Shown here: positions 37,176 through 50,238 of the stretch, one piece after another | Layout of the letters: every line of letters starts with the position of its first letter | Numbering within the stretch: the stretch's first letter is position 1 | Source of the DNA: an uncultured archaeon | GTDB taxonomy: Archaea; Asgardarchaeota; Lokiarchaeia; Sigyniarchaeales; SOKP01 | Reading direction: 5' to 3' | Length of the DNA stretch: 64,000 bases | NCBI GenBank assembly: GCA_964486045.1 | Contig: CAZALK010000005.1 | Coordinates: 128,001-192,000, forward strand | Position numbers and translations under genes: made by a program | The notes under the pieces: generated by a model | Told to the model about the DNA's origin: nothing | What the model saw: only the letters and a program-made list of their open reading frames with translations | Database searches by the model: none

Positions 37176-38312
37176 TTAATATTTTGAAGGAGTTTTTGAT
37201 TTTATTTTATGTTTTGGGATGGTCTTTGTTTTTCTTAATTCTTTTTCAAAATTTCTTTTTTCGGTTTGGAATCGTTGTTTGTCTTTCTCTAATTTTTCTC
37301 TCTCCCGTTTTATCATATTTTTATCACGACTTAAATCTGATTTCTCCCTTTCCAAGCGTTTGAGATCATTATTTAATCTTTGAAATTTTTCTTCTAATGG
37401 GGGAATTTTTCTAGATATAGAGTGGAATTTGTTTTCAGCTTTTGGAATTTTACTTTCTAATTCTTTCATTCTTGCTTCTTGTTGCCTTTTTTTGCTTCCC
37501 AGACTTTTTACATCATTTTCTACATTATTTCTATACTTTTTTAGATCTTCCTTCTTCTTTTCGACTTCACGAGCTTTGAGGTTTAAATTATCTTTTTGAT
37601 AACGTAATTTCTCTCTGTTTTCTTTAAGCTTTCTTTTTTCATCACTAATTCTGTTTCTGTCATCAACTAACTCTCTCTTTAGACTATTAACTTCTCTATT
37701 GAGATCGTCTCGTTTTTTTGTTAAATTTTTTATTTTGCTCCTTAAATCTCCTAACTTGTTCTCTAAATCTTCATTAGTCCTCTCAAGTGCGCTTTTTCTT
37801 CTCTCCATTCCCGGTAACTTAGTTTTTATCTCATTTAGTTGTTTTTCTGCATTCTGCTTCTCGGAATCTAATGAATTTTTTTGGTTTCCTAACTCTTCTC
37901 TCAAATTATCTAATTTTTTCTTAAACCTATCCAATTGAGCTTTCTTTTGATTTAATCCATCATTTTCTTTTCTTACCTTATCTTTTAATCGTTGCTCTCT
38001 TTCAATTAATTCTTTTTTCTGCAGCTCTATATCATTTTTGGCTTTTATCAGACTGTTCTGGATGATATCTCGCTTTTCACGAAGATTTTTTAATTCAAGT
38101 TCTTCATTTTTTCTTTTTTTTTCAAGATCTGCAATATTCTCTTTGTAATTTTCAATTTGGTTAAAGTGATTTTCCCATTCAATCTTTTCTTTATTTAATT
38201 TGATTCTTTCCTTCCTTATCTTTTTTAATAATTTCTTATCAATACTTATGTCTCCATAATCATCTGGGGTTTTTTCTTGTATTTGGTGTTTAGGGATAGG
38301 TTTATCATTCAT
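37176..38312 (-). CDS. Long coiled-coil protein with matching N- and C-terminal motifs
   Basis: About 340 aa of K/E/R/L heptads. KPIPKHQIQEKTPDDY at the N-terminus and KTIPKHKIKSKTPSKY at the C-terminus. Confidence 0.8.
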   Translation of the reverse strand: MNDKPIPKHQIQEKTPDDYGDISIDKKLLKKIRKERIKLNKEKIEWENHFNQIENYKENIADLEKKRKNEELELKNLREKRDIIQNSLIKAKNDIELQKKELIEREQRLKDKVRKENDGLNQKKAQLDRFKKKLDNLREELGNQKNSLDSEKQNAEKQLNEIKTKLPGMERRKSALERTNEDLENKLGDLRSKIKNLTKKRDDLNREVNSLKRELVDDRNRISDEKRKLKENREKLRYQKDNLNLKAREVEKKKEDLKKYRNNVENDVKSLGSKKRQQEARMKELESKIPKAENKFHSISRKIPPLEEKFQRLNNDLKRLEREKSDLSRDKNMIKREREKLEKDKQRFQTEKRNFEKELRKTKTIPKHKIKSKTPSKY

Positions 38313-39099: not shown

Positions 39100-39519
39100 A
39101 TGGGATTTGATGATGAAATTGATGAAGATTTAGAATTTGACGAGGATTTGGAAGAAGATTTAGATGACAAGTCAAATGAATCCTTACCGAACATTCCAAC
39201 TAATGAGATTAATTCTAAAACTCCTGCTAGGAGAGGAATTCCAGAGGGAAAAAAGATTTCAGTATATTTTATGTCCACAATTGGTCCTGGAGAGAAAAAA
39301 CAAAAATTACTTGTTAATACGGGAAATTTTGTTGGAGAAATTAAAGAAACTGTAGCTAATCTATTTGCTCTAGATCCAGCAGATTTTTATTTGAGTTCTG
39401 GGGGGATTACAATGGATGATGATTCAGTCCTTTTTGATTATAATGTGGCTGATGGAGATGATGTACTACTCATTCCAGCTAGTATTGCTGGTAAAGTCTT
39501 TCAAATATTTTTAAAATAG
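39100..39519 (+). CDS. Ubiquitin-like protein paralogue 1 (acidic N-tail, ...IPASIAG plus 8-aa extension)
   Basis: Beta-grasp pattern VYFMSTIGPGEKK...LSSGG.TM.DD..L.DYNVADGDDVLLIPAS. Clear paralogue of 44904..45239. Confidence 0.85.
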   Translation: MGFDDEIDEDLEFDEDLEEDLDDKSNESLPNIPTNEINSKTPARRGIPEGKKISVYFMSTIGPGEKKQKLLVNTGNFVGEIKETVANLFALDPADFYLSSGGITMDDDSVLFDYNVADGDDVLLIPASIAGKVFQIFLK

Positions 39520-39528
39520 ACGCCTCTT

Positions 39529-40323
39529 TCAGTTTTTTTCTTTTCTAGAAGGAATTAGAGCAATTTCATCATCATCTTCAATATCGTAATCTTTTATTTG
39601 GGAGTTCTCTTTTAGTAATATACCTCCAGAAGACAAAACAAAATCTTGTTGGCTGTAATCAAACAATACCCCGACTTTTTTCTTCACTAAGCTGATTAAT
39701 TCTGTTGTATCGAGAATGATTAACTTAGTTATCTCGCCGGGTTCAACTAAAGATCTTATGTAAACGCGTATCTGGTCCTTTAGATTAATCGTTGTGTTCA
39801 GAGGTATATAGGATATCTCCTCATCAATTTTATCTCTGTTCTTAAGCATGTTTTCGATTAATTTTTTTCGCTCATTATCATCAAAATAGAGCATTTCTCT
39901 AATAAATAGTATTTTGTCTAGCTTTGACAAGACAAGTAAGTTTATTTTTCCTAATTCTTCCTCACTAAAAACTGAAAAAATATATTTATTAATTATTGGT
40001 ATATCCTCATAAGATTCATTTGAATCAAGATATTCTTCTATTGAAGGCAAAGCCTCAAGATATTCATCAATAATATTCTCTTCTATATCATGAATAGACT
40101 TGGGTTTTGGTGAATATTTCTTATCTCTTATTTTATCATGTGGATAACCTGCAGATTGGATAACAGTGTAGATTGTACTAGTAGAGAGAACTGCAACACT
40201 CCCGATTGTTAGAATAAGAAATAACGGGGTATTATTTATACCAAATAGGAAATAACTTATGTAAATTAAAATAAAAACAGCGTAAAGAATAATAACGCTT
40301 AATATTCTATATTTTTTCCTCAT
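39529..40323 (-). CDS. Membrane-anchored protein with C-terminal ubiquitin-like domain lacking terminal Gly
   Basis: Two N-terminal TMs. C-terminal VYIRSLVEPGE...FVLSSGGILL...IKDYDIEDDDEIALIPSRKEKN is homologous to the two soluble Ubls. Confidence 0.8.
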   Translation of the reverse strand: MRKKYRILSVIILYAVFILIYISYFLFGINNTPLFLILTIGSVAVLSTSTIYTVIQSAGYPHDKIRDKKYSPKPKSIHDIEENIIDEYLEALPSIEEYLDSNESYEDIPIINKYIFSVFSEEELGKINLLVLSKLDKILFIREMLYFDDNERKKLIENMLKNRDKIDEEISYIPLNTTINLKDQIRVYIRSLVEPGEITKLIILDTTELISLVKKKVGVLFDYSQQDFVLSSGGILLKENSQIKDYDIEDDDEIALIPSRKEKN

Positions 40324-40407
40324 AGTTTTTTAATAAATCTGCTTCTAATTTTTAAATATTTGAATTAATTTTTAAATGAGATTGGCATGATAATGGAGTT
40401 TTAATAA

Positions 40408-41076
40408 TCAATCACCTAGTATTAACTTTCTAACCTTATTATACTTCTTAACATCTAATTTGAATAAAATTCTTTTTTTTTCTTTTTCAGTTTCTACTAA
40501 TTTCAGATTTTCTAGAATATTAAGGTATTTTTTAATAGTAGTATGATTCTTTTTAGTTCTATTAGCTATTTCAGTAATTCTTAAGGGTTTATCTTCTTTA
40601 ATCATAAATTTTATTATTTTTAGGACGATGTCCTTTTTCAAATAGTGATAGAACTTATCAAGTTTTGGATTGGAATCGAATTTAAAGAAAATCCTATGGT
40701 TATTGAGTTTTTTTGACCTGATGAATTCAAATTTTTCTAAACAAGAAAGGTGCCATAATGCTTGATTGCTTCCAATCTTTAGAGCTCTCATAATTTCATT
40801 AATGTTTGATGGGGTATTTTTAATGAAATTATAGATCTCATTCCTCGTAGGATTTTCAATGATATTATTTTTCATTAATTTAGTTCCAGGAATGATAATT
40901 CTTTTTTTTATGAGTTTCTTAATAATTTGTTCTATTTTGTTGCGGTTTAAGTCCGAAGTTTTTGCTCTATAAGCTACAAAATCGATTATATCGATAATCG
41001 AAAAGAATGTTTTTTTTGTCAAATATTCTTTTACTAATCCAAGAACAACAGAATCTAATTTCTCCAGGGAACTCAT
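40408..41076 (-). CDS. Tandem winged-helix transcriptional regulator
   Basis: NPTRNEIYNFI...WHLSCLEKF and ITEIA...HTTIKKYLNILE. Confidence 0.82.
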   Translation of the reverse strand: MSSLEKLDSVVLGLVKEYLTKKTFFSIIDIIDFVAYRAKTSDLNRNKIEQIIKKLIKKRIIIPGTKLMKNNIIENPTRNEIYNFIKNTPSNINEIMRALKIGSNQALWHLSCLEKFEFIRSKKLNNHRIFFKFDSNPKLDKFYHYLKKDIVLKIIKFMIKEDKPLRITEIANRTKKNHTTIKKYLNILENLKLVETEKEKKRILFKLDVKKYNKVRKLILGD

Positions 41077-41328
41077 AAGCCATATATTACTTTATGTTTT
41101 CATTTCATTGTCTTTATCTTGGAAAACTCTCTCTACAGCAATAAAATTAATATATATTAATAATTAATCCTCCAATTTATAATATCATTTCTTTTGCTCC
41201 TTACCATCTTCTTCTACATTGTTATACCAAATCTTATTTTTAAGAAATGTGTTACGTCTTATATTGAGAAATAGTAAAGGATAAGTTTAAGAAAACATTT
41301 ATAATTTTGAAGGAGGAATGCATCATTT

Positions 41329-43671
41329 TTGGTGTTTATAGAAGATCACTTAGATAAAAAGAAATTTGATCCAAAATTTCAAGCAAAACTTAAGCCAATC
41401 TTTCATAAGACAGTGGAGTTTTATATCTCAGTAGAATTACCTAAAGATGAGTCGAATAGATGGCCTATTAAGTTTTATTTAAAATTCCAAAATGATAATT
41501 TTTTTATTCCTCTGTCTGATCTGTGGATTTATGATGGCCTATTTAATGAGAAGTTTGTTAGTATTCTATTAGACAAAAAAGAGTTTCTAAATTTGCTCTT
41601 GGAGTCAATGAGAATAGCAATTAAAATTTTTCCTTCCTTACATCGCACTCTAAAGGATAATTACCCTCAAAATATTGAGATGAATTCTTCCGAAGTTTCT
41701 GAATTTCTTACTTATCCAATAGAGTTACTCAAAGATATTGGGTTTAAAGTTCAATATCCTGCCAAATTAAGATTAGCGCAGAAGAGGGGTTTATCTGCTA
41801 AATTACTGATCGGGTCCAAATCAAATAAAAGTAAATCTGATTTTAGTTTGGGATCTTTATTAGATTTCAGATGGGAATTTCTTCTTTTCGGAAAACCCGT
41901 ACGATTAGAGGAATTGAAAAGATTATTGAAATTGGATGATCCATTAATAAAATGGAGAGATAATAAGTGGATTTTCATTAACAAGGAAGATCTAGACTTT
42001 TTAAAGTGGATTTATAAAAATAATGGATTTTCTGGGAAGATTAAGGTAGCAGATATATTAAAATTTGAGTTAAGGGATAAATACACAAATTTACATCTGA
42101 GAAGAGATTATAAAATAAAATTTTTAGGAAATCTTCGGACAAAAATCAAACACATCAAGAAAAAGTTAGATTTTAAATTAATAGAGCAACCAAAAGATTT
42201 TGTGGGTGAACTAAGAGAATACCAGCAAATAGGATTTTCTTGGTTAGCGATGCTCTGTGATATTGGATTAGGAGTATGCTTAGGAGATGATATGGGGCTC
42301 GGTAAAACCATACAGACTCTAGCTTATCTCTCTTACAGACGAGAAAATTATTCTAATGAAAAAGGGAGCATTTTAATTGTGTGTCCTACATCATTATTAA
42401 CTAACTGGGAACATGAGATAAAGAAATTTTCCCCGAAATTCAAGGTTCTGAAATACTATGGATCGAGAAGAGGAAATCTCCGAGATAAAAGAGATACCTT
42501 TCTAATAGCTCACCAAATAATTTTAACTTCCTACGGAGTTGTAAGAAACGACATAGATTTCTTAAAAGATATAGAATTTAATGGAATTATAATTGATGAG
42601 TCTACAAATATTAAAAATTATAATTCTAAAAGAGCTAAATCCATTTACTTATTGAAGGGGGGTTTTAAAATCGCATTAAGTGGTACACCCATAGAGAATC
42701 ATCTCGAGGAATTATGGTCACTTTTTAATTTTCTAAATCCTGGATTACTAGCTTCTTTGAATGAGTTCAGGAAAACATTTGTAAATCCAATTCAAAATTA
42801 TCGAAATGCTGAAAAGATCAAGAAACTAAAAATTATTATAGATCCCTTTATCTTGAGACGATTAAAGACAGATAAAAAAGTAATTAAAGATTTACCGGAA
42901 AAAAATGAAATTATGATATATATCAATCTGTCTGACTCGCAAATAAGTCTATACAAAAAAATAGTAGATGAAATTCTTAAAGATATAAGAGAAAATTATA
43001 ATAGTGCAAGAAAACGAAATGGGCTTGTTCTTAAGCTTATAACTAAGTTAAAACAGCTATGTAATCACCCATTACAATATCTTAAAATTGAACCATCTAA
43101 ATACAATTTTAATGAAAACCTCAATGATTTTCTTGTTCAATCTCCTAAAATTGCAAGGATTTTTGATATTATAGAGAATATTCTTGAGAATGACCAAAAA
43201 GTTCTTATATTTTCACAATATAAAACGTTAGGTGATATCTTATTAATGGCTTTAACCACTAAATTTGGGAAAATAGTATCATTTTATCATGGTAGCTTGA
43301 ATCCCAAACAAAGAGATATGATTGTAAAGGATTTTCAATCAAGGAAAGAGGGAAATTCAAAAATTTTGATTGCTTCCATCAAAGCTGGTGGTTTTGGTTT
43401 AAATTTAACCCAAGGAACTACTGTTATACATGTAGATCGGTGGTGGAATCCTAGCACGGAGTCACAAGCCACTGATAGAGCTTATCGAATTGGTCAAGAT
43501 AAGAATGTAAATGTTTTTAAATTTATTGCTATTGGAACAATAGAAGAAAAGATTGATGCCCTGCTGGAAGAAAAAAGAAAGTTATCAAGGCAGATTATAA
43601 CTCCTACGTCTTCAATTATTTCAAAATTACCTATAGAAGAGATCGAAGACCTATTTTCCTTAATACACTGA
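41329..43671 (+). CDS. SNF2/Rad54-like DNA translocase (SSO1653 type)
   Basis: LREYQQIG, CLGDDMGLGKT, CPTSLLTNW, IIDES, LSGTPIEN, LRRLK, AGGFGLNL, WWNP, QATDRAYRIGQ. Confidence 0.93.
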   Translation: MVFIEDHLDKKKFDPKFQAKLKPIFHKTVEFYISVELPKDESNRWPIKFYLKFQNDNFFIPLSDLWIYDGLFNEKFVSILLDKKEFLNLLLESMRIAIKIFPSLHRTLKDNYPQNIEMNSSEVSEFLTYPIELLKDIGFKVQYPAKLRLAQKRGLSAKLLIGSKSNKSKSDFSLGSLLDFRWEFLLFGKPVRLEELKRLLKLDDPLIKWRDNKWIFINKEDLDFLKWIYKNNGFSGKIKVADILKFELRDKYTNLHLRRDYKIKFLGNLRTKIKHIKKKLDFKLIEQPKDFVGELREYQQIGFSWLAMLCDIGLGVCLGDDMGLGKTIQTLAYLSYRRENYSNEKGSILIVCPTSLLTNWEHEIKKFSPKFKVLKYYGSRRGNLRDKRDTFLIAHQIILTSYGVVRNDIDFLKDIEFNGIIIDESTNIKNYNSKRAKSIYLLKGGFKIALSGTPIENHLEELWSLFNFLNPGLLASLNEFRKTFVNPIQNYRNAEKIKKLKIIIDPFILRRLKTDKKVIKDLPEKNEIMIYINLSDSQISLYKKIVDEILKDIRENYNSARKRNGLVLKLITKLKQLCNHPLQYLKIEPSKYNFNENLNDFLVQSPKIARIFDIIENILENDQKVLIFSQYKTLGDILLMALTTKFGKIVSFYHGSLNPKQRDMIVKDFQSRKEGNSKILIASIKAGGFGLNLTQGTTVIHVDRWWNPSTESQATDRAYRIGQDKNVNVFKFIAIGTIEEKIDALLEEKRKLSRQIITPTSSIISKLPIEEIEDLFSLIH

Positions 43672-43685
43672 TAAGTAGAATAATG

Positions 43686-44600
43686 TTAACTACTAGAAGG
43701 AGTCATATTTTCTGTTGTTTTAAGAGGAAAGTCTGGATTTAATTTCATTATATGTGCTATGTGAAAAACACCCCATGAACCACATAAATCGCAATCGACA
43801 TCATTCCCATAACAACAAAAAGGAATTTCAAACCCATTATCCCCTAAATAGATAGGGAGCATGATGTTCTTCAATGGGCAATTATTGGTTATTTGAAGTG
43901 CGGTTTGGGATAATAAAAGATTAAGTACTTTGCTATTATTAAGAACAAAGCGTGGGTATTTCTTTTTTAATTTAATTATTTCTTTAACTGCCGAATCCCT
44001 CTCTTTTAGTGATTTCCAGCCAAATTCAGATTTATCTTTTTTTTTTGGAACATAAAAAGTAAAGGTAATACCTCTTATTGGAGTTTCTTTGCGCAAGACG
44101 TTTATTAATTTTTCATAATTACCTTTCCCTATTTTAGAAACAGCACAATTACATTGAAGATCTCCTTTAAAATCGTCTGGTAAATTATCTAAATTACTTA
44201 TTACTCTGTTGAATACACCTGTTCCTCTTATATCATCATTAAGTTCTTCAGGACCATCTATTGAGATCGTCCATTTTGTGCTAGATCCTAAATTAATTAG
44301 TGGTAATGTTCCATTAGTGGCAATGACGTTTTGAGGAAACAATTTAACACCCTCCTTTAAAATATCTTTTCGGAGAAGAGGTTCTCCTCCCATCCAGAGC
44401 ATTCTGATTATTCCATAAATTCTTTGATAGTTTTTAATTTCTTCAATCATAACGTTTGTTGCCATTTCATTTTTCTCAGTGGGTGTATTAGGATTGCCTT
44501 CCCGAAAAACGAAACAATGCTTGCATTTTAAATTACATCTATTTGTAATATTCACCAAAGCTAATGGGAATCTTGGTGTTATATCTTTCATTGTATACAA
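43686..44600 (-). CDS. Radical SAM protein with Cys-rich C-terminal domain
   Basis: CNLKCKHC, GGEPLL, TNGT, SIDG, FCCYG..VDCDLCG. Confidence 0.88.
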   Translation of the reverse strand: MYTMKDITPRFPLALVNITNRCNLKCKHCFVFREGNPNTPTEKNEMATNVMIEEIKNYQRIYGIIRMLWMGGEPLLRKDILKEGVKLFPQNVIATNGTLPLINLGSSTKWTISIDGPEELNDDIRGTGVFNRVISNLDNLPDDFKGDLQCNCAVSKIGKGNYEKLINVLRKETPIRGITFTFYVPKKKDKSEFGWKSLKERDSAVKEIIKLKKKYPRFVLNNSKVLNLLLSQTALQITNNCPLKNIMLPIYLGDNGFEIPFCCYGNDVDCDLCGSWGVFHIAHIMKLNPDFPLKTTENMTPSSS

Positions 44601-44903
44601 TTAATTAGATATTGAAATTATTAAAGATTTTACTTGACTGTTAACATTATTTATATTTAAAAAGAAAGAAAAGGATAAACAGAATGTCAATTTGGATACA
44701 AGGCACAAGAAAGTAATAATCAAGATCCTCAAAACTGAATTTTAATTTTCACCCTTTTATTCCTCTTTATTCTGGTATAAAAAGAGATTTTATCTTTCTA
44801 TATTTACTGCAATTTTATGCCAACGAAATTTATTAATAAAAATTTATCCGATTTTATTAAGAAGTAAAAAAAAATTAAAATAAAAAAATCGAAAGTGATA
44901 TGA

Positions 44904-45239
44904 ATGAGTTTTGAAGAAGAATTTGATGAGGATTTAGAATTAGAAGAGGTTCCAATGAAATCTAAGACACCTGCTTCGAAAAATCCTTCAGGAAGGAAGA
45001 AAACTGTATATTTTATTTCTACCATAGGACCCGGTGAAAAGAAAGAAAAATTAACTGTGAACGATGGTAACCGCGTTGAAGACATTAAACATACATTAGG
45101 AAATCTATATGGTCTTGATCCTGATGATTTTCACCTTAGTTCTGGTGGGAGAACGCTGAACGAGTCTGACAAATTATCGGACTATGATGTAAACGATGGG
45201 GATGATATTCTTATGATCCCTGCGAGTACAGCTGGGTAA
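44904..45239 (+). CDS. Ubiquitin-like modifier (paralogue 2), ends in single Gly (PASTAG*)
   Basis: LSSGGRTLNESDKLSDYDVNDGDDILMIP resembles ubiquitin LIFAGKQLEDGRTLSDYNI. First gene of the E1-E2-JAMM-RING run. Confidence 0.88.
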   Translation: MSFEEEFDEDLELEEVPMKSKTPASKNPSGRKKTVYFISTIGPGEKKEKLTVNDGNRVEDIKHTLGNLYGLDPDDFHLSSGGRTLNESDKLSDYDVNDGDDILMIPASTAG

Positions 45240-45270
45240 ACTTATATAATTTTCTTCATATTTTAATATG

Positions 45271-45306
45271 TGAGGGCATTAAGCCCTTCAATTTTTTTAT
45301 TTTTTT
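45271..45306 (+). terminator. GC hairpin plus T-tract between the Ubl and E1 genes
   Basis: tgagggc-attaa-gcccttca followed by atttttttatttttt. Confidence 0.55.
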
Positions 45307-45320
45307 AAAAACTATTAATC

Positions 45321-46553
45321 GTGATAATAATGGATAAGGATTCAGACTTTTTTGCTACTGGTTTATCAGTGGAAGAGAAAGATTTATACAATCGTCAATT
45401 CCGTCTTGAGGGTTGGTCTCAGAAATTGGTAAAAAATTCAAGAGTATTAATAGCTGGTGTAGGAGGTTTAGGGTGTGAAATTGCTAAAAATTTAGCCATG
45501 CTTGGTATCGGTCATTTAGATCTTGTTGATTTAGATATTATTGAGCATTCAAATTTGAATCGCCAAATTTTATTTGCAGGAGCGAAAATGGGGGAGCCAA
45601 AAGCGATTGTTGCAGCTAGAAAATTAGCAGAAATTAATCCTAATATTACTATTAAGGGATACCACACTTCTTTAGAGCGATTAGATCCGGCATTGTATCT
45701 CTCTGCCGATATTGTTATCGGTGGTCTTGATTCGATGAATGCACGTTTAAACCTAAATGCTCAATGTGTAAGATTTAGAAAGCCTTTGATAGATGGAGGG
45801 GTTTCTGGTTATCATGGTCATTTATATACAATTTTTCCTTATCAAAATGCTTGTTACGAATGCTACCCAATTCCTGAAAGGGAAACTGATAATATGGCTG
45901 CTTGTACGGTTGTTGGAGTGCCCAGAAAAAGGATTCACTGTGTGTTTAAGGGGCATCTAGCATTTTCTGAGAAGTTTGATAAAGATCCGAATCCAAAGAA
46001 TATAAATGATATTAAGTTTATTCAAAAGTTTGCGAATGAATTAGTAAATAAACATAATTTCTTACCAGAATATTCAAAAGATGATATTGTAAAAATAATA
46101 GATAGACACGATCCAGGAATAATAACAATTAATGCTGTAATTTCTGCATTACAGTCTCATGAAGCTATAAAAATTCTTCATTGGAACAATGGTCATAAAG
46201 GAATGGGTAAACCCATTAAAAGTTACTTGATTTTTAATGCAATTACAATGAAATTTTATCATATAGAAAAACAAAAAAACAAAAATTGTTCTCAATGCGG
46301 AAAAAAGGTTCGAAGAGTTTCGATCAAATTAAAATCTCGTTCACCATGCATAAATATTATTAATGTGCTAAAGAGAAATGGATTTAAATTAGATCCTGAT
46401 TTAGAGCCTGTTATAACGTTATTAGATTTTAATGATATACAGATGGTAGATTTAGATCAGAATCCAATCGAAAATGGATTAAGAAATTATGAATTAATGA
46501 CTGTAGCTGGCTTTAAAGAAGGGGAAATTTTTGTAACCTTAAAACTGACATGA
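45321..46553 (+). CDS. Ubiquitin-like activating enzyme E1 (UBA3/UBA2-like, single chain)
   Basis: YNRQ, GVGGLG, DLDIIEHSNLNRQILF, ACYEC, catalytic-Cys region AACTVVGVPRKRIHC, PGIITINAVI, CSQC, C-terminal extension. Confidence 0.92.
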   Translation: MIIMDKDSDFFATGLSVEEKDLYNRQFRLEGWSQKLVKNSRVLIAGVGGLGCEIAKNLAMLGIGHLDLVDLDIIEHSNLNRQILFAGAKMGEPKAIVAARKLAEINPNITIKGYHTSLERLDPALYLSADIVIGGLDSMNARLNLNAQCVRFRKPLIDGGVSGYHGHLYTIFPYQNACYECYPIPERETDNMAACTVVGVPRKRIHCVFKGHLAFSEKFDKDPNPKNINDIKFIQKFANELVNKHNFLPEYSKDDIVKIIDRHDPGIITINAVISALQSHEAIKILHWNNGHKGMGKPIKSYLIFNAITMKFYHIEKQKNKNCSQCGKKVRRVSIKLKSRSPCINIINVLKRNGFKLDPDLEPVITLLDFNDIQMVDLDQNPIENGLRNYELMTVAGFKEGEIFVTLKLT

Positions 46554-46651
46554 ATTTTTAATCAAAAATTATTTTAAAAAACAAGGAAACAAAATTTAAT
46601 AAAATAAAATTTTTAATATAAAAATAGGAAAAATAAAAGGGGGATAAAATT

Positions 46652-47179
46652 ATGAGTATAAGAAGTAGTCGTATTTCACAAGATTTTGCGGGATTAAAAA
46701 AAATGTATAAAAATGGTGTTATTGTTCAATTAAAACCGTTTAATCCTAAAAAGAAAAGTATCGATCATTTGGCTATTACTATAAAGGGTCCTAAGGGTAC
46801 CGCATATGCAGGAGGAATTTATCGTTTAGAAATGAGATTTCCTTCTCAATATCCTAGACAACCACCATTTGTAAGAATGCACACTCCAATCTGGCATCCA
46901 AATTTTTGGCCAAAACCGAGTGAGTATAAAGGACAGAGAAATATTTGTTTAGAATTAGTCGATCCCTCCCTAATTGGAAGGAAGGGGGGATGGAGTCCAT
47001 CAAAAACAGCAGTAACAGTTGTTCAAGCAATAATTGCAATGTTAAACACCAGAGGGAAATATATCAATCCAACGGATGTGTTTAATAAAAAAGCAGCTAT
47101 AGAATTGATGAAAAGCCGAAAATTCTACGAGAAAAAGGTGAGAAATCTGTCTAAAAAATATGCAAATAAAAAATGGTGA
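46652..47179 (+). CDS. Ubiquitin-conjugating enzyme E2
   Basis: GPKGTAYAGG, FPSQYPRQPP, IWHPN, ICL (catalytic Cys), WSP. Confidence 0.93.
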   Translation: MSIRSSRISQDFAGLKKMYKNGVIVQLKPFNPKKKSIDHLAITIKGPKGTAYAGGIYRLEMRFPSQYPRQPPFVRMHTPIWHPNFWPKPSEYKGQRNICLELVDPSLIGRKGGWSPSKTAVTVVQAIIAMLNTRGKYINPTDVFNKKAAIELMKSRKFYEKKVRNLSKKYANKKW

Positions 47180-47186
47180 GATCTAT

Positions 47187-47999
47187 ATGCAAGATGAAAA
47201 TTTATCCAACAATTCAATCCGAGAAGTAATAAAAAGAAAGATTAAAGAAAAAATAAAAGAGGAGCTATTAGAGGAGATTAGAGAAGAACTTAAATTAGAG
47301 GAAGAAGAATTAACTGAAGAAATTTCATCAATGATTACTAAAAAGAGCACTGCTAAACCAATTGTAAAACTTTCAAAAATACCTACGACTAAAATCACAG
47401 AGAAAAAAAATACTGGGACTTCATTGGAGGATGAAATTCAAAAAGAAATTTATATATCAGTAAAACCTATCCTTAAAGTAGCTAGTCATGCGCTAAAATA
47501 TGCTAATTCAAAGATTCCAAGAGAGAATTGGGTGGAAGTTATAGGACTTCTTGCAGGAAAAATAGGTAAAAAGGATATACTATACATTGAAGATGCTTAC
47601 CCGATGGGTCATGGAACAGCAGTATATGCTGAAATTAAGAATTATAAGAATTATGTAAGAGCTTTTGAGGATATTAAGAAGCAAGGACTATTCATTTGTG
47701 GATGGTATCACTCTCATCCATCCTACAATTGTTTTATGTCGAATGAAGACTTAGGAACACAGGCAAGGTATCAGAAACTCTGGGATAAGTCTGTCGCTCT
47801 TGTTATTGATCCTTATCAGATTAATGGCAAATCTACGGGATTTGAGATATATAGGGCAGATATTAAAAATAACACATGGTACCCTTTAGTATATGGGATT
47901 AAAGGATCATTAGATGTGCGTATGTTACCTGAAATATTGAAGTTTATGAATCCTATAATTGAAGGAAAGCCAGTATATCTTGAATATGATGAAGATTAA
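47187..47999 (+). CDS. JAMM/MPN+ isopeptidase (Rpn11/CSN5-like) with charged N-terminal extension
   Basis: EVIGLLAG, GWYHSHPSYNCFMSNED, VALVIDP. The ATG at 47187 follows a GGTGAG SD (the ORF track starts at 47160). Confidence 0.92.
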   Translation: MQDENLSNNSIREVIKRKIKEKIKEELLEEIREELKLEEEELTEEISSMITKKSTAKPIVKLSKIPTTKITEKKNTGTSLEDEIQKEIYISVKPILKVASHALKYANSKIPRENWVEVIGLLAGKIGKKDILYIEDAYPMGHGTAVYAEIKNYKNYVRAFEDIKKQGLFICGWYHSHPSYNCFMSNEDLGTQARYQKLWDKSVALVIDPYQINGKSTGFEIYRADIKNNTWYPLVYGIKGSLDVRMLPEILKFMNPIIEGKPVYLEYDED

Positions 48000-48027
48000 A
48001 ATATAAAAAAGGGATGAGTTTTTAACC

Positions 48028-49221
48028 ATGGTTAAAACTAAGACTGTTATAATAATACTAGGAATATTTTCGTTAATTGGATTAATTCATGGTATTGCAG
48101 CAGCTTCATTTAATGTTTTTATCACATGGCTACTAATTGGAATATGGTTGATTTTTTCTTTTAAAGTCTTTAAAAATATAAAACGTTATCGATCATTTAA
48201 TTCACCCTATAATACAGCGTTCTTTATAATCGGACCTCTTCTTGTTGGAATTTTCTATTCAATTTGGGGTTATTTTACAGGATTAATGGGAGAAAATTTA
48301 ATAGAAGGTGGTAACTTATACGTGAGCTTCTGGAGTTTAATATTTGGATCTCCCTATGTTGTTTGTGGTTCATTATCTTTATATCGTTGTTTTAAAAAAT
48401 ATACTGTCGTTTATTTTGGTACTAAATCAATTAAAGCTCGCACAATGGGTTATATTTTAAGTATTTCAGTTATATTATTCATCATTGTGTTCTGGGTAAG
48501 TTTTTATTCTGTAGTTGATTTCTATGAGTCTTTATTAATACCTCTACATTTTTCAATAGACCTCAATCTTCTGTTGCTGTTAATTAGCACGATAATAATA
48601 ATGATAGCATCAGGAGTATTAGGAGCTCGAAGTCATTTACCCCAATTAACTAGAGAATACATATCACAGCGTGTTAATAGATTAAATAATCTAACATCAC
48701 CTAAAAGTAGCAATACTCCTAGTAGAAATAGAGAGCGTATTCGTACAACAACTAGATCATCACTTTCTCCTACAACCAGAACTACCACAAAAACCTCCAG
48801 GTCTGTCTCACATTCTTCTAGATCAACACCTACATCACGTAGGCAAACTTTAAGTTCGAGAACCAAAAAAACAACTAAAACAGCAACAAGGAAGCCAAAT
48901 ACAATTGGTCAAAGTTCAATAAATTTGAGAAATCTAGCTATATATAAACCTAAAGCAGCAAATCTTTCAATAGAAGATTTTAAATGCATTTTTTGTTTTA
49001 AATTACCAGAATTCCCTAAAGATAATGGCAGAGGAATAGTTATATGCCCAAATTGTAGGTATCCCGCTCATGCAGATGAATTCAAAGATTGGCTTGATAG
49101 TTCTGGTCTTTGTTCTCGTTGCAATGCCCCAATACCGGCAAGTTATAAAAGAAATCCGAAAATAATTGCGGTTAAAAACTATCTAACGGCGTTTAAGGAT
49201 TACATAAGTAGAAATAAATGA
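48028..49221 (+). CDS. Multi-pass membrane protein with S/T/R-rich linker and C-terminal RING-like finger (putative E3 ligase)
   Basis: About 6 TMs, a low-complexity linker, then CIFC...ICPNCRYPAHADEFKDW...CSRC. Confidence 0.82.
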   Translation: MVKTKTVIIILGIFSLIGLIHGIAAASFNVFITWLLIGIWLIFSFKVFKNIKRYRSFNSPYNTAFFIIGPLLVGIFYSIWGYFTGLMGENLIEGGNLYVSFWSLIFGSPYVVCGSLSLYRCFKKYTVVYFGTKSIKARTMGYILSISVILFIIVFWVSFYSVVDFYESLLIPLHFSIDLNLLLLLISTIIIMIASGVLGARSHLPQLTREYISQRVNRLNNLTSPKSSNTPSRNRERIRTTTRSSLSPTTRTTTKTSRSVSHSSRSTPTSRRQTLSSRTKKTTKTATRKPNTIGQSSINLRNLAIYKPKAANLSIEDFKCIFCFKLPEFPKDNGRGIVICPNCRYPAHADEFKDWLDSSGLCSRCNAPIPASYKRNPKIIAVKNYLTAFKDYISRNK

Positions 49222-49281: not shown

Positions 49282-50238
49282 TTATTTTTGATGTACCGCG
49301 CTTTTTAATTCACCTAGTGTAATTTCAACTTCAGAAAATACATTATAAGGATGAATTGATTCATAGCTCTCGATAATGAATGTAATTTTCAAATTATTAT
49401 CTAAATTGGTAAAATCTCTTAAAACAAAGTTTTTTGCCATTTCTCTAATTACATCCTCGGCAAATAAGGGCTTTAAGTGAGCTGTTCTTACCAATTCAGC
49501 TTCATCTGGCCTCTTTAGAATTGACTGAATTTTTCCACTCATAGATTCTTCGATCACATTAATAATGTCTAACACATCAATTTTGTGAATCTCAAGGTCT
49601 TTCATTTCGACGATAATTGTTCCCTTTGAACGTTGATTATGTGAAGCGAAGGGAAGTAAATTAATCAATTTATTAATATCTTCTTGGGAGATTACAATAT
49701 CTTTCCTTGTTTTAATAACTTCTTCTGCGTATTCTTGTGACATTTCCTTTGCACAGGGACAGACCGTCATTCCAACTGCACTAGCTCCTATGAAGTAAGT
49801 AAAATCGATTTCTCCGTTTAATGACCGCTTTGCTTTAACGAGTGAATTAATTTCATATGATTTTTGAATATTTCTCTCATGATTTTCTCTTAATTGAACA
49901 ATTATTTTACCTTCTAATTTTACTTCAGCTTTTGAGGTATATGGATGGCGTTCCAGCAATTTTTTTACAATTCTATCCCCAACTAATTCAATTGTTGGAG
50001 TGGGTTTGTAAATTATTTCGTTTATAACTTCTTCTATTGTTTCTGAAGTTCTTGACATATGAACACCTCTTTGTTCGGCAGGAAGTCCAATATAAGCTGA
50101 AACCTTAGGGTAAAATGAATATTTTTTATTCATTTGAACGATTTCAACTTTTTTCTCCAACTCTACTACTCCTACCTTATCAATGGGGATACTTATTGCC
50201 GAATTAGAATCTTGTAGATCTTTTTTGAATTTATAAAT
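49282..50238 (-). CDS. mptA: GTP cyclohydrolase MptA (FolE2 family), probable ATT start
   Basis: QRGVHMSR, GMTVCPCA, SHNQR, LKRPDE, FAEDVIRE, ESIH. The conserved DLQD...IPIDKVGV lies upstream of the TTG at 50160, and the frame opens at ATT 50238. Confidence 0.9.
   Translation of the reverse strand: MYKFKKDLQDSNSAISIPIDKVGVVELEKKVEIVQMNKKYSFYPKVSAYIGLPAEQRGVHMSRTSETIEEVINEIIYKPTPTIELVGDRIVKKLLERHPYTSKAEVKLEGKIIVQLRENHERNIQKSYEINSLVKAKRSLNGEIDFTYFIGASAVGMTVCPCAKEMSQEYAEEVIKTRKDIVISQEDINKLINLLPFASHNQRSKGTIIVEMKDLEIHKIDVLDIINVIEESMSGKIQSILKRPDEAELVRTAHLKPLFAEDVIREMAKNFVLRDFTNLDNNLKITFIIESYESIHPYNVFSEVEITLGELKSAVHQK

What the first reader, a model, noticed from the sequence alone, without database searches (positions are those of the whole stretch)
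39100..49221. Complete ubiquitin-like conjugation locus built on a mono-glycine (Ala-Gly) modifier family
Seen: Ubl-E1-E2-JAMM-TM/RING in one orientation (44904-49221), plus two further paralogous Ubl domains 5 kb upstream. The modifier ends IPASTAG rather than GG and has a long acidic N-terminal tail. Knowledge: archaeal Ub-E1-E2-RING-JAMM operons are known (Caldiarchaeum, Asgard) with di-Gly ubiquitin. UFM1 ends IIPRDRVG with one Gly at the same P-x4-G spacing, and SUMO has a flexible N-tail. Inference: a distinct modifier system with a ubiquitin-like core, UFM1-like C-terminus, UBA3/UBA2-like E1 and membrane E3. It probably modifies membrane-proximal substrates and may bear on how eukaryotic Ubl pathways diverged.
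Basis: partly seen in the sequence, partly recalled or inferred. Interest (0 to 1): 0.88.

Follow-up and report, generated by a model that had tools for sequence, protein, structure and literature searches.

The report
Asgard Ala-Gly ubiquitin-like conjugation operon
This Asgard archaeon carries a complete ubiquitin-style protein-tagging gene set (tag, E1, E2, trimming protease, membrane-bound RING-like ligase); its tags always end in Ala-Gly instead of ubiquitin's Gly-Gly, and the set is conserved in about half of sampled Asgard genomes but has not been tested at the bench.

Summary
Window 44904-49221 (+) encodes a ubiquitin-family modifier ending IPASTAG, a ThiF-type E1, a UBC-type E2, a JAMM protease with an intact metal motif, and a polytopic membrane protein with a RING-like zinc domain.

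Two paralogous Ubl genes lie 5 kb upstream. One ends AG plus 8 residues. The other is membrane-anchored and has no terminal Gly.

The Ala-Gly end is a family signature:
- 94 of the 120 best homologues stop exactly at IPASTAG.
- The other homologues have 1-6 extra residues or are tandem poly-Ubl precursors.
- Divergent classes keep IP-x-S-T-A-G.

Tag and E1 occur in the same 11 of 33 sampled Asgard families (192 and 182 of 400 genomes) and are adjacent in four distant genomes fetched. The same genome also holds two other E1/E2 sets and Gly-Gly Ubls, so this looks like a separate pathway.

The fold and profiles are ubiquitin-like, closest to Caldiarchaeum ubiquitin. No UFM1 family match was found. 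The E1 scores best against SUMO E1 (UBA2), then UBA1 and NEDD8 E1 (UBA3).

Verdict: a new variant of the known archaeal ubiquitin operon kind. No biochemistry was done here.

This scan found the same system before on other DNA (e1-4868962, e1-2088339, e1-2299496, e1-3191408, e1-4759173).

The parts
44904..45239 (+). Modifier A: 111-aa ubiquitin-family protein. It has a disordered bipartite N-tail (acidic block, then the basic K-S-K-T-P block), a beta-grasp core at residues 31-106, and the C-terminus IPASTAG directly at the stop codon.
   Evidence: PF00240 30.9 bits. AF2 model has pLDDT 81, with the core above 90. Best fold matches are Caldiarchaeum ubiquitin 6fno_D/6fj7 at E 5e-8 to 2e-7. VIA gives Z 12-14.8 to Ub/ISG15. 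94 of 120 homologues end IPASTAG.
45321..46553 (+). E1: ThiF-fold adenylating enzyme. It has GxGGxG at residue 46, two CxxC motifs (178, 323), a candidate catalytic Cys195 in an A-C-T context, and an 85-aa C-terminal domain that may be a ubiquitin-fold E2-binding domain.
   Evidence: ThiF 206 bits. phmmer against PDB gives SAE2 136 bits, UBA1 131, UBA3 124 (residues 34-335), MoeB 118 and UBA5 55. For residues 325-410 the atlas neighbours are UAE_UbL/E2_bind clusters at 0.86-0.88, which is a lead only. Pfam finds no UFD.
46652..47179 (+). E2: UBC-fold conjugating enzyme, pI 10.5. HPN is at 82-84 and the catalytic Cys at 99, a 14-residue spacing.
   Evidence: UQ_con 88 bits. HPN and Cys are invariant in 25 aligned sequences; orthologues are 79-88% identical. 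The PDB best hits are generic UBCs at 50-59 bits.
47160..47999 (+). JAMM/MPN+ metalloprotease with a Glu/Lys-rich N-terminal extension of about 95 aa. It is the likely maturase and deconjugase.
   Evidence: PF01398 53 bits. The H-x-H-x7-S-x2-D motif is intact at residue 184. The best PDB relative is the Caldiarchaeum Rpn11 homologue 6fjv (64 bits), followed by Rpn11 and CSN5.
48028..49221 (+). Polytopic membrane protein. It has 5-6 TM segments, a Ser/Thr/Arg/Lys-rich linker (net +22) and a cytosolic RING-like zinc domain at residues 320-365. It is the candidate E3.
   Evidence: Hydropathy and loop charges are. The invariant C, C, C, C, H, D/E, W, C, C pattern holds in 25 orthologues and in distant classes. 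The AF2 model has pLDDT 73. Its neighbours are almost all RING/U-box domains, but the scores are weak: Foldseek E >= 0.013 and VIA Z <= 5.8. There is no Pfam hit, and all 120 homologues are annotated as hypothetical.
39100..39519 (+). Modifier B: paralogous Ubl with a longer acidic N-tail. Here it ends IPASIAG plus an 8-residue extension.
   Evidence: 61% identical to modifier A. PF00240 23.3 bits. Most orthologues stop exactly at IPAS[I/T/V]AG. It is syntenic in about 50 loci.
39529..40323 (-). Membrane-anchored, non-conjugatable Ubl-domain protein: two N-terminal TM segments, an acidic middle, and a C-terminal Ubl domain ending IPSRKEKN.
   Evidence: PF00240 24.1 bits at residues 204-256. 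Orthologues end IPSRK-x-K-x and none has a terminal Gly.
40408..41076 (-). Tandem winged-helix protein. It is a conserved neighbour and probably a regulator.
   Evidence: HTH_5 and TrmB hits. Atlas neighbours are Asgard wHTH clusters at 0.95-0.97. In relatives it lies roughly 270 bp upstream of modifier A.
37176..38312 (-). 378-aa coiled-coil protein. Both of its ends carry the same [I/V]-[K/R]-x-K-T-P motif found in the modifier N-tails. It is a candidate partner or substrate.
   Evidence: Only coiled-coil Pfam noise. Orthologues have one N-terminal and 1-3 C-terminal motif copies. It is syntenic in 46 of 80 loci and next to the Ubl in L100 and L101. The strict motif occurs nowhere else in the genome's ORFs.

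Best explanation
This is a self-contained ubiquitin-like conjugation pathway of an Asgard (Promethearchaeota, Lokiarchaeia-type) archaeon. It is dedicated to modifiers whose reactive end is Ala-Gly. It runs in parallel with Gly-Gly Ubl systems encoded elsewhere in the same genome.

Proposed mechanism, with each step marked as shown or inferred:
1. Maturation. Modifier A is made ready to use. Modifier B, and many homologues elsewhere, carry short C-terminal extensions or are tandem repeats, and are trimmed after Ala-Gly by the Rpn11-like JAMM protease. This is inferred from the family pattern and from the characterised Caldiarchaeum Rpn11.
2. Activation. The E1 adenylates Gly111 and takes it onto Cys195. 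The domain and motifs are shown; the activity is inferred.
3. Transfer. The modifier passes to Cys99 of the very basic E2. The HPN/Cys motifs are shown.
4. Ligation. The polytopic membrane protein presents a cytosolic RING-like domain that recruits E2~Ubl. Ligation would therefore happen at the cytoplasmic face of the membrane. The RING assignment is the weakest link.
5. Reversal. The JAMM protease also removes the tag.

Inferred accessories:
- A membrane-anchored Ubl-domain protein without a terminal Gly, acting as a docking module or decoy.
- A coiled-coil protein that shares the K-T-P tail motif with the modifiers, as a candidate substrate or adaptor.
- A wHTH regulator.
For: Domain identities and catalytic motifs are.

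Ubiquitin-type fold: the model is closest to Caldiarchaeum ubiquitin.

The Ala-Gly end is conserved:
- 94 of 120 close homologues stop at IPASTAG, and about 22 have 2-4 extra residues.
- Divergent 50%-identity cluster representatives keep IP-x-S-T-A-G.
- These include tandem 2x and 3x precursors and C-terminal fusions.
- A110 and G111 are at least 90% conserved across the 48 aligned sequences.

Conservation as a unit:
- About 50 of 80 loci hold the block coiled-coil / Ubl-B / TM-Ubl / wHTH / Ubl-A-E1-E2-JAMM-TM-RING. E1 is 75-84% and E2 76-88% identical.
- The same cassette occurs in three distant families, and in a rearranged form in a fourth.
- The Ubl is present in 192 of 400 genomes of the phylum and the E1 orthologue in 182 of 400. 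The family-level profiles are nearly identical, for example f1 119 versus 114 of 134, f13 24 versus 23 of 31, f16 18 versus 18 of 22. Both are absent from the same 22 families.

Parallel systems in the same genome:
- A JAB-E1-E2 cluster with a Ubl ending GG plus LKV.
- A UBA1-like 527-aa E1 with its own E2.
- A stand-alone Ubl ending AGG.

RING-like domain: eight conserved candidate ligands, and structural neighbours that are almost exclusively RING/U-box.
Against: - No biochemical or expression evidence was obtained.
- The RING-like domain matches no Pfam RING model above threshold. The best is zf-RING_16 at 14.8 bits against a 27.4 cut-off.
- Its fold matches are weak, and one canonical ligand position holds Glu/Asp.
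- Orthogonality to the other E1/E2 sets is inferred only from gene linkage and co-occurrence.
- The C-terminal E1 domain is called a UFD only on a sub-threshold language-model lead. Pfam finds nothing there.
- A 2026 paper reports 'Ufm1 homologues' in nine Asgard clades without accessions that I could read. If these are this family, part of the finding is already published under another name.
Confidence: 0.75

Rival explanations
1. This is simply the organism's general ubiquitin system. The Ala-Gly end would be a neutral lineage variant, the enzymes would cross-react with the other Ubl sets, and there would be no separate pathway.
For: The modifier belongs to Pfam ubiquitin. The closest solved relatives of the tag and the protease are the Caldiarchaeum ubiquitin system. 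The gene order resembles known archaeal operons.
Against: The Ala-Gly end is held across classes for more than 700 sequences. The tag is tightly linked to, and co-distributed with, one E1 orthologue group. The same genome keeps Gly-Gly Ubls next to other E1/E2 genes.
Confidence: 0.15
2. It is an archaeal forerunner of the UFM1 pathway: a single-Gly modifier with the IP-x4-G register.
For: A paper reports Asgard Ufm1 homologues with disordered termini, partial hits and multi-hit proteins, and this family also shows those features.
Against: 0 of 48 family members hit Pfam Ufm1 at E <= 1, while 48 of 48 hit ubiquitin. The own genome has no credible PF03671 match: the best hit, E 0.05, lies in an aspartokinase-like ORF. 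The E1 scores 136 bits to SAE2 and 55 to UBA5. The E2 is a canonical HPN UBC. There is no UFSP-type Cys protease; a JAMM is present instead.
Confidence: 0.05
3. It is an anti-virus defence module of the bacterial Bil/Bub or CBASS Cap2/Cap3 kind (Ubl, E1, E2, JAB).
For: The component list is the same. The E1 gives partial hits to PADLOC 'E1-E2' models, up to 57 bits over the ThiF core.
Against: The Ubl, E2 and membrane protein have no PADLOC hit, and the JAB hit is marginal. The cassette is vertically conserved with stable synteny across families, and the E2 is about 85% identical among relatives. That is unlike patchy defence islands.
Confidence: 0.03
4. It is a sulfur-carrier system (ThiS/MoaD/URM1/SAMP-like), in which the E1 makes a thiocarboxylate on the terminal Gly.
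For: The E1 has a ThiF/MoeB fold (MoeB 118 bits). A few family members give weak ThiS hits (6 of 48).
Against: A dedicated E2 with a catalytic Cys, a JAMM and a RING-like protein are linked to it. The E1 has no rhodanese domain. The modifier is ubiquitin-family.
Confidence: 0.02

Closest known systems
Caldiarchaeum subterraneum ubiquitin operon (Ub, E1, E2, small RING finger protein, Rpn11 homologue), reconstituted in vitro (PMC5654768, PMC6043591)
   Same: It has the same five functional classes in one cluster. Its ubiquitin is the best structural match of this modifier (6fno_D, 6fj7). Its Rpn11 homologue is the best solved relative of this JAMM (6fjv, 64 bits). In that system the precursor is trimmed by the JAMM.
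   Different: That ubiquitin ends in di-Gly and its E3 is a small soluble RING protein. Here the end is Ala-Gly and the modifier has a conserved 30-residue tail. The candidate E3 is a polytopic membrane protein unrecognised by Pfam. The block also carries a second modifier, a membrane Ubl-domain protein and a coiled-coil protein.
ESCRT-linked Asgard ubiquitin cascades (Heimdall/Odin ubiquitin, PMC9192718; Helarchaeia E1-E2-RING E3 with pro-ubiquitin, bioRxiv 10.1101/2023.07.25.550441)
   Same: It comes from the same phylum and is a eukaryote-type E1/E2/RING cascade. Precursors have short C-terminal extensions.
   Different: Those use a conserved C-terminal di-Gly motif and sit with ESCRT genes. 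This cassette has Ala-Gly modifiers and no ESCRT neighbours in the window. It coexists with Gly-Gly Ubls in the same genome.
Eukaryotic SUMO and NEDD8 pathways (UBA2/SAE2 and UBA3 E1 subunits, UBC9/UBC12)
   Same: The E1 scores highest against SAE2 and aligns nearly full-length with UBA3. The E1 is compact with a short Cys domain, and a possible C-terminal UFD. The modifier has a flexible, lysine-bearing N-tail, as SUMO does (established knowledge). Residue 72-equivalent is Ala, as in NEDD8 (by inspection).
   Different: There is a single E1 gene and no partner subunit gene in the cluster. The modifier ends Ala-Gly. Orthology to either eukaryotic E1 is untested, and UBA1 scores almost the same (131 against 136 bits).
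UFM1 system (UFM1, UBA5, UFC1, UFL1/DDRGK1, UFSP)
   Same: It has a single terminal Gly preceded by I-P-x4. It acts at a membrane (the ER in eukaryotes; established knowledge).
   Different: There is no Pfam Ufm1 signal. The E1 is far closer to canonical E1s than to UBA5. The E2 is a canonical HPN UBC. The protease is a JAMM, not a Cys protease.
Hrd1-Usa1/HERP ERAD ligase complex (established knowledge; analogy only)
   Same: It combines a polytopic membrane RING ligase with a membrane-anchored UBL-domain protein. HRD1 RING entries appear among the weak fold neighbours.
   Different: No sequence relationship was shown. The archaeon has no demonstrated ER. The function is untested.
Bacterial Bil/Bub and CBASS Cap2/Cap3 Ubl systems
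   Same: They also consist of a Ubl with a terminal Gly plus E1, E2 and JAB.
   Different: Only the ThiF core gives PADLOC hits. This cassette is vertically conserved and not island-like.

Membership tests
Ubiquitin family (Pfam PF00240) modifier | Sequence match to the ubiquitin profile above the curated cut-off | tested here: met
   30.9 bits against a cut-off of 25.4. 48 of 48 aligned family members match.
Ubiquitin family (Pfam PF00240) modifier | Beta-grasp fold of the ubiquitin type | tested here: met
   The AF2 core has pLDDT above 90. Foldseek gives E 5e-8 to Caldiarchaeum Ub, with TM 0.83-0.92 to ubiquitins. VIA gives Z 12-14.8 at rmsd 1.1-2.5 over 72-86 residues.
Canonical ubiquitin/NEDD8/SUMO-type conjugatable Ubl | C-terminal Gly-Gly | tested here: not met
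   It ends Ala-Gly. A110 and G111 are at least 90% conserved in 48 sequences. 94 of 120 homologues end IPASTAG.
Conjugatable Ubl (general) | Exposed or exposable C-terminal Gly | tested here: met
   Gly is the last codon. Homologues carry 1-6-residue extensions or tandem repeats, each after A-G.
Canonical E1 (UBA1/UBA2/UBA3 type) | ThiF adenylation domain with a nucleotide-binding Gly motif | tested here: met
   ThiF 206 bits. GxGGxG at residue 46. SAE2, UBA1 and UBA3 score 124-136 bits.
Canonical E1 (UBA1/UBA2/UBA3 type) | Catalytic Cys in an inserted Cys domain | tested here: inconclusive
   Cys195 sits in an A-C-T-V context within the region aligned to UBA3. It was assigned by inspection; no structure was made.
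Canonical E1 (UBA1/UBA2/UBA3 type) | C-terminal ubiquitin-fold domain that binds E2 | tested here: inconclusive
   Atlas neighbours of residues 325-410 are all UAE_UbL/E2_bind clusters, but at 0.86-0.88, below the 0.9 mark. Pfam finds none.
UBC-type E2 (PF00179) | UBC fold with the HPN motif and a catalytic Cys | tested here: met
   UQ_con 88 bits. HPN 82-84 and Cys99 are invariant in 25 sequences.
JAMM/MPN+ deubiquitinase (Rpn11/CSN5 type) | MPN domain with the H-x-H-x7-S-x2-D metal motif | tested here: met
   PF01398 53 bits. The motif is at residue 184. Caldiarchaeum Rpn11 scores 64 bits and Rpn11 57-58 bits.
RING/U-box E3 | Match to a RING profile | tested here: not met
   The best hit is zf-RING_16 at E 0.022, 14.8 bits against a 27.4 cut-off. 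120 homologues have no precomputed Pfam domain.
RING/U-box E3 | Eight zinc ligands in cross-brace spacing | tested here: inconclusive
   The pattern C-x2-C...C-x2-C-x4-H-x-[D/H]-E-x3-W...C-x2-C is conserved across classes. The sixth position is Glu or the adjacent Asp/His, which is not the canonical Cys/His.
RING/U-box E3 | RING fold | tested here: inconclusive
   The model has pLDDT 73. Neighbours are almost all RING/U-box, but Foldseek E >= 0.013 and VIA Z <= 5.8.
RING/U-box E3 | Binds the E2 and stimulates discharge | not testable with these tools
   This needs biochemistry.
UFM1 system | Modifier matches the Ufm1 family (PF03671) | tested here: not met
   0 of 48 members match at E <= 1. 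The only match in the own genome is E 0.05, in an unrelated 469-aa ORF.
UFM1 system | Modifier fold closer to UFM1 than to ubiquitin | tested here: inconclusive
   Only ubiquitin, ISG15, NEDD8, SUMO, FAT10 and Hub1 rows are listed. A family that is not listed is not excluded.
UFM1 system | UBA5-type E1 | tested here: not met
   UBA5 scores 55 bits, against 124-136 bits for SAE2, UBA1 and UBA3.
Known anti-phage Ubl systems (PADLOC) | Component proteins match defence-system models | tested here: not met
   Only partial ThiF-core hits for the E1 and a marginal JAB hit. The Ubl, E2 and membrane protein have none.

The most novel reading that the evidence does not exclude
Asgard archaea already run several orthogonal Ubl pathways in one cell. 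The Ala-Gly pathway would be a discrete one with three features:
- Its compact E1 is a sister of the eukaryotic SUMO/NEDD8 E1 catalytic subunits rather than of UBA1.
- Its E2 reads a short acceptor or docking motif, [I/V]-[K/R]-x-K-T-P. This motif is present in the modifier tails (chain formation) and at both ends of the neighbouring coiled-coil protein.
- Its membrane RING ligase and membrane Ubl-domain protein form an ERAD-like quality-control unit.

If so, the split of Ubl pathways, and membrane-anchored RING ligation, would predate eukaryotes.
Probability: 0.2. Interest if true: 0.85.

Novelty: new variant of a known kind. Interest (0 to 1): 0.6.

Why it matters
Archaeal E1-E2-RING-JAMM ubiquitin operons are known, and two have been reconstituted. 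All characterised ones use di-Gly ubiquitin.

This cassette differs in several ways:
- Its Ala-Gly modifier family is strictly conserved, with its own E1, E2, protease and an unannotated membrane ligase candidate.
- It is present in about half of sampled Asgard genomes.
- It coexists with Gly-Gly systems.

It therefore offers a concrete test of whether pathway-specific Ubl recognition arose before eukaryotes. Such recognition would rest on the penultimate residue, tail motifs and a dedicated E1/E2. It also allows a test of whether membrane-anchored RING ligation is that old.

The proteins are small and soluble apart from the E3. The cassette also occurs in a closed 6.04-Mb genome of the same order (G138), which may help if that organism is in culture.

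Tried and rejected
1. Complex prediction of the E2 with the RING-like domain plus two Zn gave 'no answer' (score 0.14, mark 0.32). This is not evidence either way.
2. UFM1 reading. No Pfam Ufm1 signal was found in the family or in the genome. UFM1 chains were not among the 50 rows shown by Foldseek or VIA. This is reported only as an absence.
3. Defence-system reading. PADLOC gave only ThiF-core hits.
5. Genome-wide search for the K-T-P motif as a substrate list. A loose pattern gave 36 ORFs, mostly chance. The strict K-[S/T]-K-T-P-[A/S] form occurs only in the modifier and the coiled-coil protein. No substrate catalogue resulted.
6. Pfam on the E1 C-terminal 86 residues and on the JAMM N-terminal extension found nothing meaningful.
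7. Literature. No paper in the held library describes an Ala-Gly-ended Asgard Ubl. The Asgard 'Ufm1 homologues' of PMC12962969 could not be matched to sequences because no supplements are held.
8. A phylogeny with eukaryotic E1s was not attempted, because no tool supplied eukaryotic E1 sequences and typing them from memory is unreliable.
9. Atlas search of the wHTH protein returned only Asgard wHTH clusters and gave no link to UFL1/DDRGK1-type winged helices.

Full report
**What is in the window**

ORF listing and Pfam confirm five co-directional genes.
- A 111-aa ubiquitin-family protein, 44904-45239 (PF00240, 30.9 bits).
- A 410-aa ThiF-type E1, 45321-46553 (206 bits).
- A 175-aa UBC E2, 46652-47179 (88 bits).
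- A 279-aa JAB/MPN protein, 47160-47999 (53 bits), overlapping the E2 gene by 20 nt.
- A 397-aa protein, 48028-49221, with no Pfam hit.

The catalytic signatures are present.
- The E1 has GxGGxG at residue 46, two CxxC pairs and Cys195 in an A-C-T context.
- The E2 has HPN at 82-84 and Cys99.
- The JAMM has H-x-H-x7-S-x2-D at residue 184.

The last protein has 5-6 hydrophobic segments and a basic Ser/Thr/Arg/Lys linker (net +22). It has a C-terminal Cys/His domain at residues 320-365. By loop charges the C-terminal domain is cytosolic.

- 39100-39519 (+) is 61% identical to the modifier and ends IPASIAG plus 8 residues.
- 39529-40323 (-) has two TM segments and a Ubl domain ending IPSRKEKN.

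The host genome is a 5.18-Mb, 45-contig assembly that is 99% complete. Its relatives are labelled Promethearchaeota / Lokiarchaeota.

**The Ala-Gly end is a family trait**

The large protein search found 706 homologues. Of the best 120, which are 69-96% identical, 94 stop exactly at IPASTAG. About 22 continue for 2-4 residues after A-G.

The exhaustive search of 50%-identity representatives reached divergent clusters.
- Their ends read IPHSTAG, IPVSTAG, IPSSTAG, IPTSTAG and IPSSRAG.
- Genes with two or three tandem copies occur (P0122, P0121). In these each A-G is followed directly by the next acidic tail.
- Longer proteins carry the domain at their extreme C-terminus. The N-terminal parts include Roadblock (weak hit), HerA-like ATPase, CDC48_N-VWA, and a zinc-ribbon/coiled-coil family.

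In a 48-sequence alignment, Ala110 and Gly111 are at least 90% conserved. The only row seen without a terminal Gly is the membrane-anchored paralogue.

Extensions and tandem repeats after A-G are the pattern expected of precursors that a protease trims to expose the reactive glycine.

**What the modifier resembles**

The AF2 model (pLDDT 81, core above 90, N-terminal 30 residues low) is a ubiquitin-type beta-grasp.
- Foldseek ranks Caldiarchaeum ubiquitin first (6fno_D E 5e-8, 6fj7). Ubiquitin, NEDD8, ISG15 and SUMO follow.
- VIA-align gives Z 12-14.8 to ISG15/ubiquitin-type domains.
- A profile of the family hits single ubiquitins in the PDB at about 30 bits.
- All 48 members match Pfam ubiquitin, 39 match Rad60-SLD, and none matches Ufm1.
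- The own genome has no credible Ufm1 match.

The UFM1 likeness is therefore limited to the I-P-x4-G register.

**The enzymes**

E1, against solved structures:
- It scores best with SAE2/UBA2 (136 bits), then UBA1 (131) and UBA3 (124, aligned over residues 34-335).
- MoeB scores 118 and UBA5 only 55.
- A language-model search of residues 325-410 returns only eukaryotic UAE_UbL/E2_bind clusters at 0.86-0.88, a lead below the tool's 0.9 mark. Pfam sees nothing there.

E2: it is a generic UBC, scoring 50-59 bits to Ubc13-like, UBE2T and UBC9. It has an unusually long HPN-to-Cys spacing, which the genome's other E2 shares.

JAMM: its closest solved relative is the Caldiarchaeum Rpn11 homologue, followed by Rpn11 and CSN5.

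**The candidate E3**

The C-terminal domain is strongly conserved, with 34 invariant columns among 25 orthologues. Across distant classes it keeps C-x2-C...C-x2-C-x4-H-x-[D/H]-E-x3-W...C-x2-C. The Glu sits where RING-H2 has its sixth ligand, four residues before the conserved Trp. The adjacent position varies only between Asp and His, so either could be the ligand.

The AF2 model is of middling confidence (pLDDT 73). Its neighbours by two independent methods are almost all RING or U-box domains, but the scores are weak: Foldseek E >= 0.013 and VIA Z <= 5.8. No Pfam RING model reaches threshold. All 120 best homologues are unannotated 'hypothetical proteins' with no Pfam domain.

I therefore treat 'RING-like E3' as probable, not shown.

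**Conservation as a unit**

A scan of species-representative genomes found 140 loci, of which 80 were kept. tblastn with the window's proteins shows one block in about 50 of them: coiled-coil (-), modifier B (+), TM-Ubl (-), wHTH (-), then modifier A, E1, E2, JAMM and TM-RING (+), and usually the same downstream gene.

Identities to the window's proteins are:
- E1 75-84%
- E2 76-88%
- JAMM 55-80%
- TM-RING 53-68%

In relatives the wHTH gene lies roughly 270 bp upstream of modifier A. In this genome an SNF2 helicase and a radical-SAM gene (41329-44600) are inserted there; L023 also has the SNF2 gene. About 25 loci are stand-alone second copies of the modifier with unrelated neighbours.

Across 400 genomes of the phylum the modifier is found in 192 and the E1 orthologue in 182. 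The E1 threshold was E <= 1e-90: in five genomes checked, orthologues scored 1e-112 or better and paralogues 1e-63 or worse. The family profiles nearly coincide, and both genes are absent from the same 22 families.

In four distant genomes the modifier is immediately upstream of the E1. In three of them E2, JAMM and TM-RING follow; in the fourth they are nearby in another order.

**Parallel systems in the same genome**

Whole-genome family searches and ORF lists show three further items.
- A JAB-E1(305 aa)-E2-like cluster, with an 87-aa Ubl ending GG plus LKV.
- An E2 (39% identical to this one) near a 527-aa E1 whose best PDB hits are UBA1 (145 bits) and then SAE2 (102 bits).
- A stand-alone 87-aa Ubl ending AGG.

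This favours a dedicated Ala-Gly pathway beside Gly-Gly pathways. Specificity is inferred from linkage only.

**An unexplained shared motif**

The modifier tails contain [I/V]-K-S-K-T-P. The neighbouring coiled-coil protein carries the same motif once at its N-terminus and 1-3 times at its C-terminus in its orthologues. Fusion proteins repeat it before the Ubl domain. The strict form occurs nowhere else in the genome's ORFs.

It may be an acceptor-lysine consensus, a docking motif or a phosphosite. I could not test which.

Charges are complementary. The modifiers are acidic (pI 4.1-4.5). The E2 (10.5), the E3 (10.2) and the coiled-coil protein (9.9) are basic.

**Prior knowledge**
- Caldiarchaeum's operon was reconstituted in vitro (PMC5654768, PMC6043591).
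- Asgard ubiquitin has been studied in the ESCRT context with di-Gly ubiquitin (PMC9192718; bioRxiv 10.1101/2023.07.25.550441).
- I found no description of an Ala-Gly family in the held library.
- One paper reports 'Ufm1 homologues' in nine Asgard clades, noting disordered termini, partial hits and multi-hit proteins (PMC12962969). That could be this family under another name, but no accessions were readable.
- This scan has met the same cassette on other genomes, with similar verdicts.

**Verdict**

This is a real, complete and deeply conserved Ubl conjugation cassette. It is a new variant of a known kind, defined by:
- Ala-Gly modifiers with a conserved bipartite tail;
- a dedicated compact E1 and a basic E2;
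- an Rpn11-like protease;
- a membrane-embedded RING-like protein.

All activity is inferred from sequence.

Noticed in passing
window 41329-44600: An SNF2-family helicase gene (780 aa, +) and a radical-SAM gene (304 aa, -) sit between the wHTH gene and modifier A. In most related loci these two neighbours lie roughly 270 bp apart, so this looks like an insertion into the conserved block. L023 and L035 also have the SNF2 gene.
   Followed up: partly
L018 5009-7319 (G000:C2:173008-175318): A second, compact Ubl system lies in the same genome: JAB (163 aa), E1-like (305 aa), E2-like (146 aa) and, on the opposite strand, an 87-aa Ubl ending GG plus LKV.
   Followed up: partly
L017 4639-5157 and 7190-8773 (G000:C1); L001 1438-1701 (G000:C10): A third E2 (172 aa) and a 527-aa E1 lie next to a 1588-aa coiled-coil/TPR-like protein. 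The E1's best solved relatives are UBA1/UBA6, not SAE2. On another contig there is a stand-alone 87-aa Ubl ending AGG.
   Followed up: partly
P0121, P0122, P0125, P0127/P0131/P0136/P0137, P0151, P0171/P0185 (metagenomic relatives): The Ala-Gly Ubl also occurs as 2x and 3x tandem precursors. It also occurs as the extreme C-terminal domain of longer proteins: Roadblock/LC7 (weak Pfam hit, E 0.0013), HerA-like ATPase, CDC48_N plus VWA, and a zinc-ribbon/coiled-coil family with repeated K-T-P motifs.
   Followed up: partly
L004 (G000:C13:10132-10293, minus strand): A ubiquitin-family domain (25.6 bits) lies inside a 669-aa open frame. It was not examined.
   Followed up: no
The genome search genus g2 (G145-G149): In one genus of the same family, none of five genomes has the E1 orthologue and four lack the modifier. 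Two of these genomes are 100% complete. This suggests loss of the cassette as a unit.
   Followed up: no
window 49282-50160 (-): A 292-aa gene downstream of the TM-RING gene is conserved in position in 39 of 80 related loci. Its family was not tested here.
   Followed up: no
G135 and G143 (closed genomes of about 4.4 and 4.3 Mb, same order): The modifier was not found at E <= 1e-10 in these two single-contig genomes, and neither appears among the 182 genomes with an E1 match at E <= 1e-90. The closed 6.04-Mb genome G138 of the same family has the full cassette. This matters for choosing a culture to work with.
   Followed up: partly
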